A stretch of 64,000 nucleotides of DNA from Gammaproteobacteria bacterium (GTDB taxonomy: Bacteria; Pseudomonadota; Gammaproteobacteria; JAJFKG01): NCBI GenBank assembly GCA_965116795.1, contig OZ220716.1, forward strand, positions 266,503-330,502, read 5' to 3'. The position numbers and the translations under genes were made by a program. Below the pieces are notes generated by a model. That model did not search any database and was not told the DNA's origin. It worked only from the letters and a program-made list of their open reading frames with translations. Of this stretch, positions 53,700 to 58,440 are shown piece by piece (the stretch's first letter is position 1; each line of letters opens with the position of its first letter).

Positions 53700-53762
53700 T
53701 TATAGAGCACATTTTGCAGAAACAGCTTCCTTCTTTCTAAATAATTTCACAAGAATTTTCAT
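53700..53762 (-). CDS. Micropeptide MKILVKLFRKKEAVSAKCAL (20 aa)
   Basis: Hand-translated; AAGGAGAG SD; family motif. Confidence 0.8.
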   Translation of the reverse strand: MKILVKLFRKKEAVSAKCAL

Positions 53763-53781
53763 TTTTACTCTCCTTTTTAGA

Positions 53782-53841
53782 CTAGAAACAACCAGCACTA
53801 ACAGCTTTTTTTGATAGAAAAAACTGAACTAATTTTTCCAT
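53782..53841 (-). CDS. Micropeptide MEKLVQFFLSKKAVSAGCF (19 aa)
   Basis: Hand-translated; AAGGGAGA SD. Confidence 0.8.
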   Translation of the reverse strand: MEKLVQFFLSKKAVSAGCF

Positions 53842-53877
53842 GACTTTCTCCCTTTCAATTACTTCCCAAACAAAAAA

Positions 53878-53943
53878 CTAACCAGCACAAGGTGCAGCTT
53901 TAGCTAATTTCTTGCATGAGAAAATACGAACTAATTTTTTCAT
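53878..53943 (-). CDS. Micropeptide MKKLVRIFSCKKLAKAAPCAG (21 aa)
   Basis: Hand-translated; AAGGAGAG SD. Confidence 0.8.
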   Translation of the reverse strand: MKKLVRIFSCKKLAKAAPCAG

Positions 53944-54039
53944 GACTCTCTCCTTTTGTTTAACAAATTTGATCAACTTTATATTGATCCTCCCACTTCT
54001 CATTCTCAATGAACAAGAAAAACTATTAAACCGTCATTG

Positions 54040-54096
54040 CTACAAGCAGTTTGCTTGGTTAGCTTTCTTAGCTAAAAGTTTTAATATAAATTTCAT
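54040..54096 (-). CDS. Micropeptide MKFILKLLAKKANQANCL (18 aa)
   Basis: Hand-translated; AAGGAGA SD. Confidence 0.8.
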   Translation of the reverse strand: MKFILKLLAKKANQANCL

Positions 54097-54111
54097 AGTC
54101 TATCTCCTTTC

Positions 54112-54171
54112 CTAGAAACAACGAGCACTAACAGTTTTTTTTGACAGAAAAAACCGAACTAATTTTTTCAT
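54112..54171 (-). CDS. Micropeptide MKKLVRFFLSKKTVSARCF (19 aa)
   Basis: Hand-translated; AAGGAGAG SD. Confidence 0.8.
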   Translation of the reverse strand: MKKLVRFFLSKKTVSARCF

Positions 54172-54210
54172 GTTGCTCTCCTTACAAATGTTTTGGTTTT
54201 ACTGGCCACT

Positions 54211-54219
54211 ACAATATCA
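54211..54219 (-). promoter_or_regulatory. Possible extended -10 promoter for array 1
   Basis: TG-A-TATTGT about 40 bp before the first ATG. Confidence 0.3.
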
Positions 54220-54774
54220 GAGACAATTCCAAAACTAGTAGTGACAGCGCTTGTAAAACTTACCCCAATAAAGTCATTTTATCAAGCAGTTACATAAGCA
54301 ATGAAGGTGTCTTGTTTAGTATAACGCTAGTGCCAACCCTAGATAAAAGATAACTGTAAGCATTTGTAAGGTTCTGCAACTTAATTAACAGCGCTCTGCC
54401 TGCTTATGTCAGAGATATTTAAACTAGGTGTAAGGGCTCGTATACCCGAATTACCGGACTAGTACCACCAACTATTGTGAAGCTATATTTATTTGCTGGC
54501 ATTGTCCCAATTTACCCCTTGTAATACGCTATTTATCAATCCTATTGAAAATAAGGATATTTTCCAGGAAAAAGCCACTTAACTATATCATCTTGTAAGC
54601 ATTGTCTGGCAAGCTTATTGCCTTTTGTCGGATTACCAACCCTTTGAAACCGTAGTACTATGCCAGGCACTAAACTTGTAAAAGAATTGGCCGTTATACA
54701 GCATAATGAAGGCCATGGCTTAAGTGGGATTATCTCATTGCTAGGCACGATGATAGACATACTCAGAGGTAGTT

Positions 54775-55125
54775 ATGAAGGTTGATGATAATGTAAAAGC
54801 AAGTGTGATGTCGCTGTTAATTATTACACTTAATTTGTTTGCGTTTGGGTTGGCCATAATCATGCTGGTTAGCTTATATAGTATTGGAAGCCCGATATTC
54901 ACGATTTTAATATCGTCAGTATTTATTGCGATGCAAGTGTGCATGAATATTTGTCTATCAAGCATGAGGAGAACATTGCTTCCTGACACAGCAGTAAAAA
55001 GCAAAAGAAAAGGTAATCGATATTTTACTTCTTTGCGTAGCATGTTTGTGGTGTGTTTGTTTTTAGGTGCTTTAACTGCTCTCATAATTAGCATTTCTGT
55101 TTTAATAAAGGTTTTGCTTTTTTAG
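54775..55125 (+). CDS. Small membrane hypothetical protein (3 TM)
   Basis: GAGGT SD, long hydrophobic hairpin, basic loop, C-terminal TM. Confidence 0.6.
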   Translation: MKVDDNVKASVMSLLIITLNLFAFGLAIIMLVSLYSIGSPIFTILISSVFIAMQVCMNICLSSMRRTLLPDTAVKSKRKGNRYFTSLRSMFVVCLFLGALTALIISISVLIKVLLF

Positions 55126-55162
55126 TAGCCGATTGATAAATGTAAATAAATAGAGAGAAAAT

Positions 55163-56589: not shown

Positions 56590-56607
56590 AAAAAACAAAC
56601 AATATCT

Positions 56608-56799
56608 TCAATTAATATTAGGGGATTCATTAACACTAGTGATGTATTGTTTATTTATATTGCGAGATACAAATTCGCTATATCTAGTAAGCAAATACAT
56701 ACGAGCAAATAAAAGCATTAGCAAAATTAAACTGGTAAAGATGAGAAAGAACATAAAAAGCTTGCGGTTTGAAAAAAAACTTACTAAGGGGGTATCCAC
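56608..56799 (-). CDS. Small single-TM hypothetical protein
   Basis: AAGGAG SD 7 nt before GTG; one TM. Confidence 0.5.
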   Translation of the reverse strand: MDTPLVSFFSNRKLFMFFLIFTSLILLMLLFARMYLLTRYSEFVSRNINKQYITSVNESPNIN

Positions 56800-56830
56800 A
56801 GAAATTCTCCTTTGTATTTTCTTGGATTAA

Positions 56831-56850
56831 TTAAGTAGTTAACTACTTAA
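56831..56850. promoter_or_regulatory. Perfect 20-bp palindrome between divergent ORFs
   Basis: TTAAGTAGTT|AACTACTTAA. Confidence 0.5.
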
Positions 56851-56904
56851 CCGTCGAAATTATAAGCTTTTTCACATACTATACAACTACAATAAGGTAA
56901 TAAA

Positions 56905-57597
56905 ATGGACGATAGTCAAAAAAGAAAGCACAAAAGTCACTGGCTTCGAATAATAGAAGTGGTAGCCATTGCTATACCTGTAATATTTTTGGTCGTCTCA
57001 GTTGCTAATAATATAATAAAAGACCACTACGATTTTATTTTAAATACAAAACGTTTAGATATAGGGGCAGAAAATATTAGCGTCGAGAAGCAAAAAATAC
57101 GCATGCAAGCATATCAAAAATATAGAGATGAAGTAAAACAGATTAGTGAAGTATTATCCCTTTTACAGATACAAATTGTTAGCAATAATCAATTTTGTCG
57201 TCATTTTAATCAGCTTCCCTTAGAAAAACAAAAAGCTGAAAGACAAATGTTTACGAAAGAGTTGAAAGAAAGAAAACAACAGGCAGATAAACTTCGTTCC
57301 AATGCTTATACCCAATATGGATTGCTGAAATTTTTATTTGGAGAAAAAGCTTATCAGCAAGCAAAAAAATTTCTAATGATGGACAAAAAATACATAGATC
57401 CCTGCGCTGCAGATTTCCCAGAGGAATCTAAATGGCTCGAATGGCAAAATGCCTTCTTCGATGCACTAATAGAGCATGTAAAAAGCAAATATCCAGACCT
57501 TTCTCTTCTACTAAACAGCAAGGTTGATCTGCACCAGCCCAGCTTCCTCAGCAACTTAACATCAGAGGAAGAGACTGATGCAAATCAACTTATCTAA
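56905..57597 (+). CDS. Hypothetical protein, N-terminal TM plus helical/coiled-coil domain
   Basis: 230-aa ORF, TAAGGT SD. Confidence 0.75.
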   Translation: MDDSQKRKHKSHWLRIIEVVAIAIPVIFLVVSVANNIIKDHYDFILNTKRLDIGAENISVEKQKIRMQAYQKYRDEVKQISEVLSLLQIQIVSNNQFCRHFNQLPLEKQKAERQMFTKELKERKQQADKLRSNAYTQYGLLKFLFGEKAYQQAKKFLMMDKKYIDPCAADFPEESKWLEWQNAFFDALIEHVKSKYPDLSLLLNSKVDLHQPSFLSNLTSEEETDANQLI

Positions 57598-57600
57598 TAA

Positions 57601-57660
57601 TTAGATGCAGCCGGCACTAACGGCTTTTTTTAACAGAAAGAATTGAATTAATCTTTTCAT
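57601..57660 (-). CDS. Micropeptide MKRLIQFFLLKKAVSAGCI (19 aa)
   Basis: Hand-translated; AAGGAGA SD. Confidence 0.8.
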   Translation of the reverse strand: MKRLIQFFLLKKAVSAGCI

Positions 57661-57754
57661 AGTTATCTCCTTTACTCGAACAAAACAAACACGATCAATT
57701 TTCCTTTAAATTGATCTCCCTAATTTCTCATCCTACAATGAACAAGAAAATCTA

Positions 57755-57796
57755 TTAAGCTGTCATTGCTAAAAGTTTTGATATGAACTTCATCAT
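57755..57796 (-). pseudogene. Deleted micropeptide MMKFISKLLAMTA (Cys core lost)
   Basis: GAGGAGA SD; equals 54040-54096 minus 32 nt between two TAGC repeats. Confidence 0.7.
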
Positions 57797-57819
57797 AGTC
57801 TATCTCCTCACTAACTGTA

Positions 57820-57876
57820 CTAATAGCAATGAGCACTACTAGACTTTTTAGATAAAAAACTTAATATAAATTTCAT
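57820..57876 (-). CDS. Micropeptide MKFILSFLSKKSSSAHCY (18 aa)
   Basis: Hand-translated; starts 15 nt after the GRDP-like stop, AAGGGGA SD. Confidence 0.78.
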   Translation of the reverse strand: MKFILSFLSKKSSSAHCY

Positions 57877-57891
57877 ATCTTCTATTTCCCC

Positions 57892-58440
57892 TTACTTTAC
57901 GAATCGTTCCAAAATAGCCATAAACCAATTTCTCTTAACTTGTCTTAAGTAATCACCAAATTCTTGTTTATACAATTGTTGTGTTTTTTCGTAATACCTA
58001 TCCATTTCAGCATCGGTTGTTGAACTAGTGCCTGGAAGTTGAGGATAATGATTAAGGTAGCTACCTTTAAGCTCCGGAAAAACTGCATTACAAAATTTTC
58101 GGTATTCGTTTGTATGTAAGATATGCGCATGCCATACTTCATCTACTTCGTATGAAGGTGGCAGTTTTTCTGTTGGGTATTTTTTTCTAAGAAAGAGATA
58201 ATTGCGATATTGTTTGATTGCTTTGACTGCTTCGCGGTGCCTCCAGCCATCAGCTTTGACTAGTCGCTCTAACACAGAGGTTAAATCGATAGAATAAATG
58301 TGCTGTTTTGCTTTCTCCAATAACTGCTCATTGATATCGGAGATAGTGATATCAGCATTATTCGGGAAGCGCTGTTCTAGTTCCGATGAACAACCACCTT
58401 TCAATATCCCTGAGTCTAAAATAGCCTCTGACCCTGGCAT
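57892..58440 (-). CDS. GRDP-like (DUF1399-type) domain protein without a Gly/Cys-rich tail
   Basis: IDL..V.ERL....GW....A..AI.QYR.YLFL...YP, PPSYEVDEVWHAHILHT.EY..FC, LNH.P, T..LY..EFG; TATAAT at 58481-58476. Confidence 0.8.
   Translation of the reverse strand: MPGSEAILDSGILKGGCSSELEQRFPNNADITISDINEQLLEKAKQHIYSIDLTSVLERLVKADGWRHREAVKAIKQYRNYLFLRKKYPTEKLPPSYEVDEVWHAHILHTNEYRKFCNAVFPELKGSYLNHYPQLPGTSSTTDAEMDRYYEKTQQLYKQEFGDYLRQVKRNWFMAILERFVK

What the first reader, a model, noticed from the sequence alone, without database searches (positions are those of the whole stretch)
53700..58440. Candidate new peptide system: GRDP/DUF1399-like protein plus eight Cys-terminal micropeptide genes in two arrays
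Seen: eight minus-strand micro-ORFs below the ORF-track cutoff, each with a purine-rich SD. Seven intact products: MKFILSFLSKKSSSAHCY, MKRLIQFFLLKKAVSAGCI, MKKLVRFFLSKKTVSARCF, MKFILKLLAKKANQANCL, MKKLVRIFSCKKLAKAAPCAG, MEKLVQFFLSKKAVSAGCF, MKILVKLFRKKEAVSAKCAL. All have a cationic amphipathic N-half, a KK, then (S/A/Q)-A-x-C and only 1-2 more residues; Ala-x-Cys is invariant while x varies (H,G,R,N,P,G,K). The first peptide gene starts 15 nt after a 182-aa protein with a D-x-x-W-H-x-H / C / H motif of the GRDP-like family. Knowledge: conserved leader plus variable core, repeated next to one enzyme, is typical RiPP logic. From memory, many GRDP-like proteins carry fused Gly/Cys-rich or AAxC-repeat tails; this needs checking. 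Inference: this is a split form in which the tail-less domain modifies or loads metal onto Cys peptides in trans, analogous to fused versus split borosins.
Basis: partly seen in the sequence, partly recalled or inferred. Interest (0 to 1): 0.92.

Follow-up and report, generated by a model that had tools for sequence, protein, structure and literature searches.

The report
Cysteine-ended micropeptides with GRDP-like partner
Seven tiny, unannotated genes for cysteine-ended peptides sit beside a small histidine-rich protein of unknown function, a pairing that recurs in many Legionella-like bacteria, and the protein is predicted to act on the peptides' cysteine, which would give a very large uncharacterised protein family a first testable job.

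Summary
Seven intact micro-ORFs of 18-21 aa and one truncated copy lie on the minus strand at 53700-57876. Each has a Shine-Dalgarno site and ends A-x-C-x(1-2). They follow a 182-aa GRDP-like/PF27765 protein.

The pairing is not chance. In the 2.45-Mb genome, 10 of 12 pattern hits lie within 4.2 kb of one of four GRDP-like paralogs. In 52 related loci from other genomes, 23 carry 1-5 such peptides: 41 pattern hits, against 0 in reversed DNA and a mean of 0.15 in shuffles.

A third gene is conserved in 12 loci. It is convergent and encodes a single-pass membrane protein whose only invariant residues are two cysteines.

Distant relatives carry fused Cys tails, including AAKCGR repeats and ...ADCK ends. 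One close relative ends in a micropeptide-like tail, so the peptides look like detached tails.

The domain model is all-helical with invariant His residues and has no solved structural match. Modification of the peptides is inferred, not shown.

I found no paper describing such a module. This scan has noted GRDP-like/Cys-peptide pairs before on other DNA.

Best reading (0.45): the domain acts on the peptide cysteine in trans.

The parts
57892..58440 (-). 182-aa GRDP-like / PF27765 protein with an invariant D-E-x-W-H-x-H ... C ... H-x-P motif. The AF2 model is all-helical.
   Evidence: Fold searches gave no clear match.
58508..58535 (-). Sigma-70-like promoter match (TTGACA, 16 nt, CAAAAT) upstream of the GRDP-like gene.
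   Evidence: This is a consensus match only; the region has no more such matches than its shuffles.
57820..57876 (-). Micropeptide gene 1 (18 aa, ends A-H-C-Y). It starts 15 nt after the GRDP-like stop codon.
57755..57796 (-). Truncated micropeptide copy (13 aa). Its Lys-Lys and A-x-C part has been lost by deletion relative to the copy at 54040-54096.
   Evidence: sequence; 74% DNA match between 57645-57775 and 53928-54046
57601..57660 (-). Micropeptide gene 2 (19 aa, ends A-G-C-I).
56905..57597 (+). Convergent 230-aa single-pass membrane protein ('TM2Cys'). Its only family-invariant residues are C98 and C167, and its outer domain is modelled as a four-helix bundle.
   Evidence: (hhalign 93%, E 2.6e-7)
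55163..56251 (+). 362-aa protein with an N-terminal membrane helix and a Cys-rich C-terminal part. Relatives occur in 6 GRDP-like loci. Membership of the module is uncertain.
   Evidence: No Pfam match.
54775..55125 (+). 116-aa membrane protein with relatives at own-genome paralog loci W2 and W4. Membership of the module is uncertain.
54112..54171 (-). Micropeptide gene 3 (19 aa, ends A-R-C-F), the first of the distal array.
54040..54096 (-). Micropeptide gene 4 (18 aa, ends A-N-C-L).
53940..54045 (-). Spacer with two small conserved hairpins. It is also present at 57655-57775 and at paralog W2. No covariation was seen and its role is unknown.
   Evidence: No Rfam match.
53878..53943 (-). Micropeptide gene 5 (21 aa, ends A-P-C-A-G).
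53782..53841 (-). Micropeptide gene 6 (19 aa, ends A-G-C-F).
53700..53762 (-). Micropeptide gene 7 (20 aa, ends A-K-C-A-L).
53654..53677 (-). Intrinsic-terminator-like hairpin (10 pairs followed by a T run) closing the distal array.

Best explanation
A small His-cluster protein of the GRDP-like/PF27765 family is encoded together with seven intact (plus one truncated) genes for 18-21-residue cationic micropeptides ending A-x-C-x(1-2), and it likely binds these peptides and chemically alters or loads their single cysteine in trans; the peptides look like detached, multiplied copies of the Cys tail that most relatives carry fused to the same domain.

Shown:
- The genes, their Shine-Dalgarno sites and the conserved motif A(-5)-x-x-A(-2)-x-C-x-COOH.
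- The genetic linkage in at least 14 other assemblies.
- The fused-tail relatives.
- A conserved convergent membrane protein with two invariant Cys.

Inferred:
- The helical domain, probably with a metal held by the invariant His residues, recognises the C-terminal motif and acts on the thiol. Oxidative chemistry or thiol transfer are candidates. In some lineages a thiol-type SAM methyltransferase would follow.
- The matured cationic peptides then act at or beyond the inner membrane.
- The membrane-anchored four-helix-bundle protein would serve there as receptor, immunity factor or handling partner.
For: 1. Linkage. In the own genome, 10 of 12 pattern hits lie within 4.2 kb of the 4 GRDP-like paralogs, and all 4 paralogs have a peptide within about 500 nt. 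Of 52 loci from genome contigs, 23 carry 1-5 peptides. That is 41 hits, against 0 in reversed DNA and 0.15 in shuffles. Further peptides turned up in the class sample at L064 (same genus), L069, L071 and L075.

2. Motif. Among 49 unique peptides, Ala at -5 (not imposed by the search) occurs in 43, K/R dominate positions -6 to -8, and 45 have exactly one residue after Cys.

3. Coding constraint. Pooled pN/pS is 0.25 with pS 0.63 over 48 cross-locus pairs. This figure is biased by choosing pairs with at least 60% identity.

4. Fused forms. Of 24 distant homologs, 20 have Cys in the tail. Of 73 tail Cys, 23 have Ala at -2, against an Ala frequency of 0.115. L040 ends ...ADCK, L039 ends ...ASCAG, and L044 and L047 carry AAKCGR-type repeats. 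P0083 ends in a basic helix plus ...APCL, like the free peptides.

5. Invariant residues. D100, W103, H104, H106, C117 and H131 are invariant in 23 of 23 homologs, including all four paralogs.

6. Architecture. The order GRDP-like gene, then peptide(s), then a convergent TM2Cys gene is found in 12 loci.

7. Neighbouring enzymes elsewhere.
- TPMT sits next to the gene in L008, L010 and L028.
- A SAM methyltransferase lies inside the L010 operon.
- Methyltransferases lie directly beside the gene in L036, L038 (TehB-like), L039 and L040.
- AdoHcy hydrolase is a neighbour in L044.
- In a Chlamydiae locus, an NHLP-like ORF and a C39-peptidase ABC exporter flank the GRDP-like gene.
Against: - No data on transcription or translation. 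No RNA run holds the stretch.
- No evidence of binding, of a metal, or of any mass change on the peptides.
- The window's own cluster has no protease, exporter or tailoring enzyme of a known family.
- The window protein falls just below the PF07173 cut-off.
- The domain has no structural relative that would suggest a chemistry: best VIA Z is 4.4 and best Foldseek E is 1.3.
- C117 is not conserved family-wide.
- Four close loci with DNA on both sides show no peptide (L014, L019, L021, L023).
- Five of the seven intact peptide genes lie 3.7 kb from the GRDP-like gene, behind four opposite-strand genes, so they need not be co-regulated with it.
- The methyltransferase neighbours are a minority, and three of them are orthologous loci.
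Confidence: 0.45

Rival explanations
1. The peptides are not substrates but detachable subunits. Each would supply a Cys thiolate and a basic helix that complete a metal or redox site on the GRDP-like domain, as the fused tail would do in cis. The result would be a metal-binding, metallochaperone or thiol-relay complex.
For: - Fused tails are the rule in distant relatives.
- There is one Cys per peptide in 42 of 49 cases.
- The domain has an invariant His cluster.
- The Gly/Cys-rich tails of L046, L051, L053 and L056 look like metal-binding sequences.
Against: - Up to seven diverged peptide genes serve one domain gene, and the distal array has its own terminator.
- A single Cys is a poor metal site on its own.
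- The residues flanking the Cys are free to vary.
Confidence: 0.2
2. The peptides are unmodified, leaderless, membrane-active cationic peptides, like bacteriocins or phenol-soluble modulins. The neighbouring membrane proteins would give immunity or export, and the GRDP-like protein would be a chaperone or immunity factor, or merely linked.
For: - The peptides are short, with mean net charge +5.4, and occur in diversified multi-copy arrays.
- Membrane proteins lie adjacent.
- MATE transporters occur in 4 loci.
- The setting is mobile: a 9-kb duplication, a multi-copy element, and IS66 elements in other loci.
Against: - The strictly conserved A-x-x-A-x-C-x end and its likeness to tails fused to a cytoplasmic domain are not explained.
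- Amphipathicity is not above the level expected from composition in 43 of 49 peptides.
- No dedicated ABC exporter lies in the window.
Confidence: 0.15
3. The Cys peptides are substrates of an enzyme encoded elsewhere, for example the genome's MNIO enzyme, and the GRDP-like protein is only an accessory.
For: - MNIO enzymes modify Cys in peptides, and Cys/Gly/Ser-rich tails of TIGR04222 proteins have been proposed as their substrates (PMC12452194: abstract and section 'TIGR04222 proteins' read).
- The genome has one MNIO gene.
Against: - The only MNIO gene lies 1.65 Mb away, in a complete bufferin-type cluster with its own signal-peptide precursor, a 291-aa gene in the usual DUF2063-partner position (no Pfam scan was run on this cluster) and a DoxX-like membrane protein.
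- No MNIO was found among the 148 neighbour proteins scanned against Pfam in 47 loci.
Confidence: 0.05
4. The micro-ORFs are not protein-coding. They would be chance ORFs, or regulatory leader ORFs or RNA elements.
For: - They are very short and there are no expression data.
- Conserved hairpins lie between some copies.
Against: - Observed 41 hits against 0 to 0.15 expected.
- SD sites and exact stop placement are conserved across genomes, with many synonymous differences.
- The arrays end in a terminator with no downstream gene to regulate.
- No Rfam family matches.
Confidence: 0.03

Closest known systems
Pfam PF07173 (GRDP-like, formerly DUF1399) / PF27765: plant glycine-rich domain proteins and their bacterial relatives
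   Same: Same conserved core (LPPS-x-D-x-D-E-x-W-H-A-H-I-L-H-T ... F-C ... H-x-P). The window protein carries PF27765 in the precomputed annotation. The profile finds 12,870 clusters at E<=1e-3.
   Different: - No biochemical function is known for the family. The papers listed are plant phenotype studies, of which I saw only listings and abstract starts.
- Here the domain has no tail, and the Cys tail is encoded as separate, multiplied micro-genes.
Borosins (fused versus split peptide N-methyltransferase systems; recalled, not checked here)
   Same: The enzyme domain has its substrate as its own C-terminal tail in some lineages and as a separate small gene in others. That is the pattern seen here.
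   Different: Borosin enzymes are SAM-dependent alpha-N-methyltransferases. The GRDP-like domain is an unrelated helical His-cluster domain, and no modification has been shown for it.
MNIO-modified Cys peptides (bufferins, methanobactin-type) and TIGR04222 Cys/Gly/Ser tails (PMC12452194)
   Same: The substrates are defined by Cys-containing motifs, and low-complexity Cys tails on larger proteins are proposed as substrates. L051 and L053 join a GRDP-like domain to a membrane region and a GGCGG tail.
   Different: No MNIO or DUF2063 gene lies in the module. The genome's only MNIO sits in a separate bufferin cluster. The peptides here have no signal peptide.
Leaderless bacteriocins / phenol-soluble modulins (recalled)
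   Same: Short cationic peptides without a leader, several diverged copies in a row, and membrane proteins next door.
   Different: These peptides have an invariant C-terminal A-x-x-A-x-C-x, are linked to a cytoplasmic His-cluster domain, have no ABC exporter in the window, and show weak amphipathicity.
CaaX-type C-terminal Cys processing (recalled)
   Same: A Cys close to the C-terminus preceded by a basic stretch, with thiol-type methyltransferases near some loci.
   Different: The motif is C-x, not C-a-a-X: 45 of 49 peptides have a single residue after Cys. No prenyltransferase or CaaX protease was seen.

Membership tests
GRDP-like (PF07173) / PF27765 | Match to the family HMM at or above its curated cut-off | tested here: inconclusive
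   For PF07173 the window protein scores 21.3 bits against a cut-off of 22.7. Paralog W3 scores 25.8 and P0083 scores 29.3. PF27765 is given for the window protein itself in the precomputed column, but that model is not in the local library, so I could not score it.
GRDP-like (PF07173) / PF27765 | Conserved D-E-x-W-H-x-H ... H-x-P core | tested here: met
   D100, W103, H104, H106, H131 and P133 are invariant in 23 of 23 sequences.
RiPP biosynthetic cluster | Ribosomally encoded precursor peptide gene(s) next to the maturation gene | tested here: met
   Conserved micro-ORFs with SD sites beside the GRDP-like gene in 23 of 52 loci and at 4 of 4 own paralogs. Translation itself is not shown.
RiPP biosynthetic cluster | Post-translational modification of the peptide by a cluster enzyme | not testable with these tools
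   This needs mass spectrometry after co-expression.
RiPP biosynthetic cluster | Leader/core organisation with leader removal and export | tested here: inconclusive
   The window has no protease or ABC exporter. A C39-ABC exporter was seen only in the Chlamydiae locus L030. The conserved part of the peptide is its C-terminal end.
MNIO (DUF692) peptide systems | MNIO enzyme with partner protein encoded beside the precursor | tested here: not met
   The only PF05114 match lies 1.65 Mb away in its own bufferin-type cluster. None was found among the 148 neighbour proteins scanned.
Type I toxin-antitoxin small toxins | Hydrophobic membrane-spanning peptide | tested here: not met
   Mean Eisenberg hydrophobicity is -0.04 and mean net charge is +5.4. 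An antisense RNA was not tested for.
CaaX-box substrates | Cys followed by exactly three residues (a-a-X) | tested here: not met
   45 of 49 peptides have one residue after Cys, 2 have two and 2 have three.
Leaderless bacteriocins | Dedicated exporter and immunity gene, and antimicrobial activity | tested here: inconclusive
   Membrane proteins and MATE genes lie nearby, but no ABC exporter does. Activity cannot be tested here.

The most novel reading that the evidence does not exclude
The GRDP-like/PF27765 domain is the maturase of an undescribed, very widespread class of ribosomal Cys peptides. It acts on a C-terminal A-x-C motif, either on its own tail or, as here, on arrays of detached 17-22-residue micropeptides. 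In Legionella-like intracellular bacteria the products work together with a dedicated membrane-anchored two-cysteine receptor-like protein. This would assign a first biochemical function to more than 12,000 protein clusters, including the plant GRDPs.
Probability: 0.35. Interest if true: 0.9.

Novelty: new variant of a known kind. Interest (0 to 1): 0.78.

Why it matters
The GRDP-like/PF27765 family is very large: 12,870 clusters at 50% identity match the profile. It reaches from bacteria and archaea to plants, and it has no known biochemical activity.

This locus offers about the simplest handle on the family. It has a tail-less domain, ten 18-21-residue candidate partners in one genome with a sharply defined C-terminal motif, and a conserved two-cysteine membrane protein. 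All of these are small enough to synthesise or co-express.

A positive result would define a new peptide-maturation chemistry or a new thiol/metal-handling system. It would also uncover a class of genes that annotation pipelines miss because the peptides are under 25 residues long.

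Tried and rejected
- **Rfam.** A search of 53000-59500 at E<=1 found no family.
- **PDB by sequence.** The profile search found nothing below E 0.75.
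- **Fold searches of the GRDP-like model.** VIA-align against 48,161 chains gave a best Z of 4.4. Foldseek against PDB gave no match at E<=0.001. This does not prove a new fold.
- **ESM Atlas.** No usable hit.
- **Expression.** No RNA holder is listed for the stretch.
- **Laying contigs of three DNA runs.** This only re-found the paralogous island. The joint 53630->54483 is paralog W2, which lacks the 852-bp segment holding the distal array.
- **Methyltransferase remnant.** The weak Methyltransf_25 hit on residues 7-48 of the window protein (E 0.0023, below cut-off) was not backed by BLASTP against the L010 methyltransferase. I dropped it.
- **A5 neighbour group.** This group of TM/Cys neighbours (L006, L019, L022, L023, L025) is not demonstrably related to TM2Cys: hhalign probability is 0.8%.
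- **Inter-peptide hairpins.** They show no covariation.
- **TM2Cys fold.** The model matches periplasmic four-helix-bundle sensor domains at Z about 10. That is within the generic range for helical bundles, so no homology is claimed.
- **Complex prediction.** None was sent, because the peptides are shorter than the 30 residues the tool asks for.
- **Literature.** Searches for DUF1399, GRDP, PF07173, PF27765, TIGR04222, 'DUF1399 + RiPP' and Legionella micropeptides found no description of such a module. Supplements of PMC12452194 were not opened.

Full report
**What is there.** On the minus strand of the window, a 182-aa gene (57892-58440) is followed after 15 nt by an 18-aa ORF (57820-57876). 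Next come a 13-aa truncated copy (57755-57796) and a 19-aa ORF (57601-57660). About 3.7 kb further on, behind four plus-strand genes, lies an array of five more ORFs of 18-21 aa (54112-54171, 54040-54096, 53878-53943, 53782-53841, 53700-53762). The array is closed by a terminator-like hairpin at 53654-53677. Every ORF has a GGAG-type ribosome-binding site, and the seven intact products end A-x-C plus one or two residues.

**Not chance.** The window lies in a single-contig 2.45-Mb genome of 41% GC. This genome has four paralogs of the 182-aa protein, and each has a peptide of the same kind within about 500 nt.
- Genome-wide there are 29,187 ATG ORFs of 12-30 aa. Of these, 767 have an SD and 12 fit a loose pattern (ends A-x-C-x1-4, at least 3 K/R in the first 12 residues).
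- Ten of those 12 lie within 4.2 kb of a paralog. The other two are 12-aa noise.

A scan of one genome per prokaryote species found 52 loci encoding relatives of the protein. Of these, 23 hold 1-5 such micro-ORFs, in at least 14 different assemblies. Most are labelled Legionellales, Coxiellaceae or Gammaproteobacteria MAGs, and one is a Bacteroidia MAG. The filter gives 41 hits in the 52 loci, 0 in the reversed sequences, and a mean of 0.15 in 20 shuffles.

Among the 26 closest loci (tblastn E<=1e-30), 21 have a peptide. One contig ends 36 nt after the gene (L012). Four have DNA on both sides but no peptide (L014, L019, L021, L023).

A sample of 400 genomes of the class gave 44 with a GRDP-like match at E<=1e-10. 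This tally includes two genomes flagged unpublished, G041 and G143; without them it is 42 of 398. The sample yielded further peptides, one of them in the same genus (L064, L069, L071, L075).

**The peptide family.** I analysed 49 unique peptides of 17-22 aa with mean net charge +5.4.
- Anchored at the Cys, Ala at -2 was imposed by the search. Ala at -5 was not, yet it occurs in 43 of 49.
- K/R dominate positions -6 to -8, and 45 of 49 have exactly one residue after Cys.
- The consensus is therefore M-K-K-L-(F/I/V)-K-x-(L/F)-x-x-K-K-x-A-x-x-A-x-C-x.
- Cross-locus pairs show pN/pS of 0.25 at pS of 0.63. This is biased by choosing pairs with at least 60% identity, but it shows conservation at the protein level rather than the DNA level.
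- The claimed amphipathic helix is weak: only 6 of 49 peptides beat 95% of their own shuffles.

**The protein.**
- It scores 21.3 bits on PF07173 (GRDP-like), just below the 22.7 cut-off. Its paralog W3 and relative P0083 pass.
- The precomputed annotation lists PF27765 for the window protein and all 35 first hits.
- D100, W103, H104, H106, C117, H131 and P133 are invariant in 23 of 23 homologs.
- A profile search of 1.84 billion representatives finds 12,870 clusters at E<=1e-3 and 4,885 at E<=1e-10.
- The AF2 model (pLDDT 81) has seven helices. It has no convincing solved counterpart: VIA best Z is 4.4 over 48,161 chains, Foldseek best E is 1.3, and the PDB sequence search best E is 0.75.

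**Fused versus split.**
- Of 24 more distant homologs, 20 have Cys in the region after the core.
- L044 and L047 (Planctomycetaceae) carry AAKCGR-type repeats. L042 and L041 end in ...KCGR/NCK/KCR motifs. L046, L051, L053 and L056 have Gly/Cys tails. L040 ends ...ADCK and L039 ends ...ASCAG.
- Of 73 tail Cys, 23 have Ala at -2, against an Ala frequency of 0.115. Repeats within one protein are not independent.
- In the closest 150 representatives most proteins have no tail. P0083 (125 aa), however, ends in a basic helix plus ...KPAPCL, very like the free peptides.
- The simplest reading is that the micro-genes are detached and multiplied copies of the tail.

**A third conserved gene.**
- Directly after the last proximal peptide, tail to tail, lies a 230-aa gene (56905-57597, plus strand). 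It encodes a protein with one N-terminal membrane helix.
- Its relatives in the own genome (A4) and in eight other loci (A3) are homologous: hhalign probability is 93% with E 2.6e-7.
- In the 11-sequence alignment the only invariant residues are two cysteines, C98 and C167.
- The order GRDP-like gene, peptide(s), convergent TM2Cys gene is found in 12 loci.
- The family is rare and has no Pfam or name: 7 hits.
- Its model (pLDDT 73) is a long helix plus a four-helix bundle. The best matches are periplasmic ligand-binding domains of chemoreceptors and sensor kinases (Z 10.6, rmsd 3.0, 124 residues aligned). That is within the generic range for helical bundles.

**Other neighbours.** Pfam scans of 85 neighbour proteins in 22 peptide-bearing loci and 63 in 24 distant loci gave the following.
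- No MNIO, YcaO, radical-SAM or lanthipeptide enzyme was found.
- Methyltransferases recur. TPMT lies divergently upstream in L008, L010 and L028 (orthologous loci). A SAM methyltransferase lies inside the L010 operon. Methyltransferases lie directly beside the gene in L036, L038 (TehB-like), L039 and L040. AdoHcy hydrolase is a neighbour in L044.
- Luciferase-like monooxygenases (L016, L024) and GNATs (L016, L033) also occur.
- In the Chlamydiae locus L030, an NHLP-like 99-aa ORF precedes the GRDP-like gene and a C39-peptidase ABC exporter follows it.
- These are hints of peptide tailoring and thiol chemistry, not proof.

**What it is not.** The genome's only MNIO gene sits 1.65 Mb away in a complete bufferin-type cluster. 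The motif is not a CaaX box. The peptides are not hydrophobic like type I toxins. No Rfam family matches.

**Context.**
- The genome encodes DotI/IcmL. With the record titles of the closest loci, this points to a Legionella-like, host-associated bacterium.
- Window 49396-58587 is duplicated (about 87% identity, inverted) at genome 134101-147721.
- The duplicate lacks the 852-bp segment that holds the distal five-gene array.
- The distal array itself shows internal duplications and a 74% match to the proximal array.

**Mechanism.** I commit, at 0.45, to the reading that the helical His-cluster domain recognises the A-x-x-A-x-C-x C-terminus and acts on the thiol in trans. On this reading the peptides are its substrates, and TM2Cys is a membrane-side partner. 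The rivals are a non-catalytic Cys-donating subunit (0.2), unmodified membrane-active peptides (0.15), a distal enzyme (0.05) and non-coding elements (0.03). Linkage, motif and the fused forms are shown. Binding, metal, chemistry, translation and localisation are inferred.

**Prior knowledge.**
- Literature searches found only plant GRDP phenotype papers (listings and abstract starts seen) and the MNIO landscape paper PMC12452194.
- Of that paper I read the abstract and the section on TIGR04222 proteins. It proposes Cys/Gly/Ser tails as MNIO substrates but does not mention the GRDP-like domain in the parts I read.
- This scan's own earlier notes report GRDP-like/Cys-peptide pairs on other DNA. 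They are unchecked AI notes. I re-tested here the fused-tail claim, the 'detached tail' idea and the methyltransferase link.

Noticed in passing
window 59177-61168 (-) and 61214-63412 (-): Two MATE-family transporter-like proteins (663 and 732 aa) have long acidic or Ser-rich extensions and end in CaaX-like CAIS and CVIS. From memory, such motifs are used by Legionella effectors for host prenylation. That would be odd on a polytopic transporter.
   Followed up: partly
window 49396-58587; genome 134101-147721: A 9-kb segment including the whole module is duplicated (about 87% identity, inverted). The copy has one peptide gene instead of seven and lacks an 852-bp segment (53631-54482).
   Followed up: partly
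window 49812-51704: RuvC-like and ATPase genes belong to an element present in about 8 copies in the genome at 65-72% identity. It is probably a family of integrated mobile elements beside the module.
   Followed up: no
window 45639-45833: A short repeat of about 190 bp occurs in about 30 copies across the genome at 73-98% identity. It looks like a MITE or REP element.
   Followed up: no
L057 (genome 1975533-1979312): A bufferin-type cluster by gene order: a 100-aa Cys-containing precursor with a signal peptide, an MNIO gene (PF05114, 340 bits), a 291-aa gene in the usual DUF2063-partner position, and a DoxX-like membrane protein. Only the MNIO assignment comes from a Pfam match. The other names are read from the ORF list.
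   Followed up: partly
L036, L038, L039, L040, L010, L008, L028, L044: SAM methyltransferases, including TPMT and TehB-like thiol/chalcogen types, lie directly beside GRDP-like genes in several phyla. In one case the neighbour is AdoHcy hydrolase.
   Followed up: partly
L030 1152-4615: In this Chlamydiae locus an NHLP-like 99-aa ORF overlaps the start of the GRDP-like gene. A 196-aa unknown protein and a C39-peptidase ABC exporter follow.
   Followed up: no
L013 626-4582: Three GRDP-like genes, each followed by its own A-x-C-x micropeptide, stand in a row on one contig. A DDE transposase lies between them.
   Followed up: no
window 55163-56251 (+): A 362-aa protein with an N-terminal membrane helix and a Cys-rich C-terminal part (...C-x-x-x-C...CDC/CDA..RCK) has relatives in 6 GRDP-like loci. 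It has no Pfam match.
   Followed up: partly
window 53940-54045 and 57655-57775 (-); L002 2060-2170: Two small hairpins in the spacer between peptide genes are conserved in three paralogous copies. No covariation and no Rfam match were found.
   Followed up: partly
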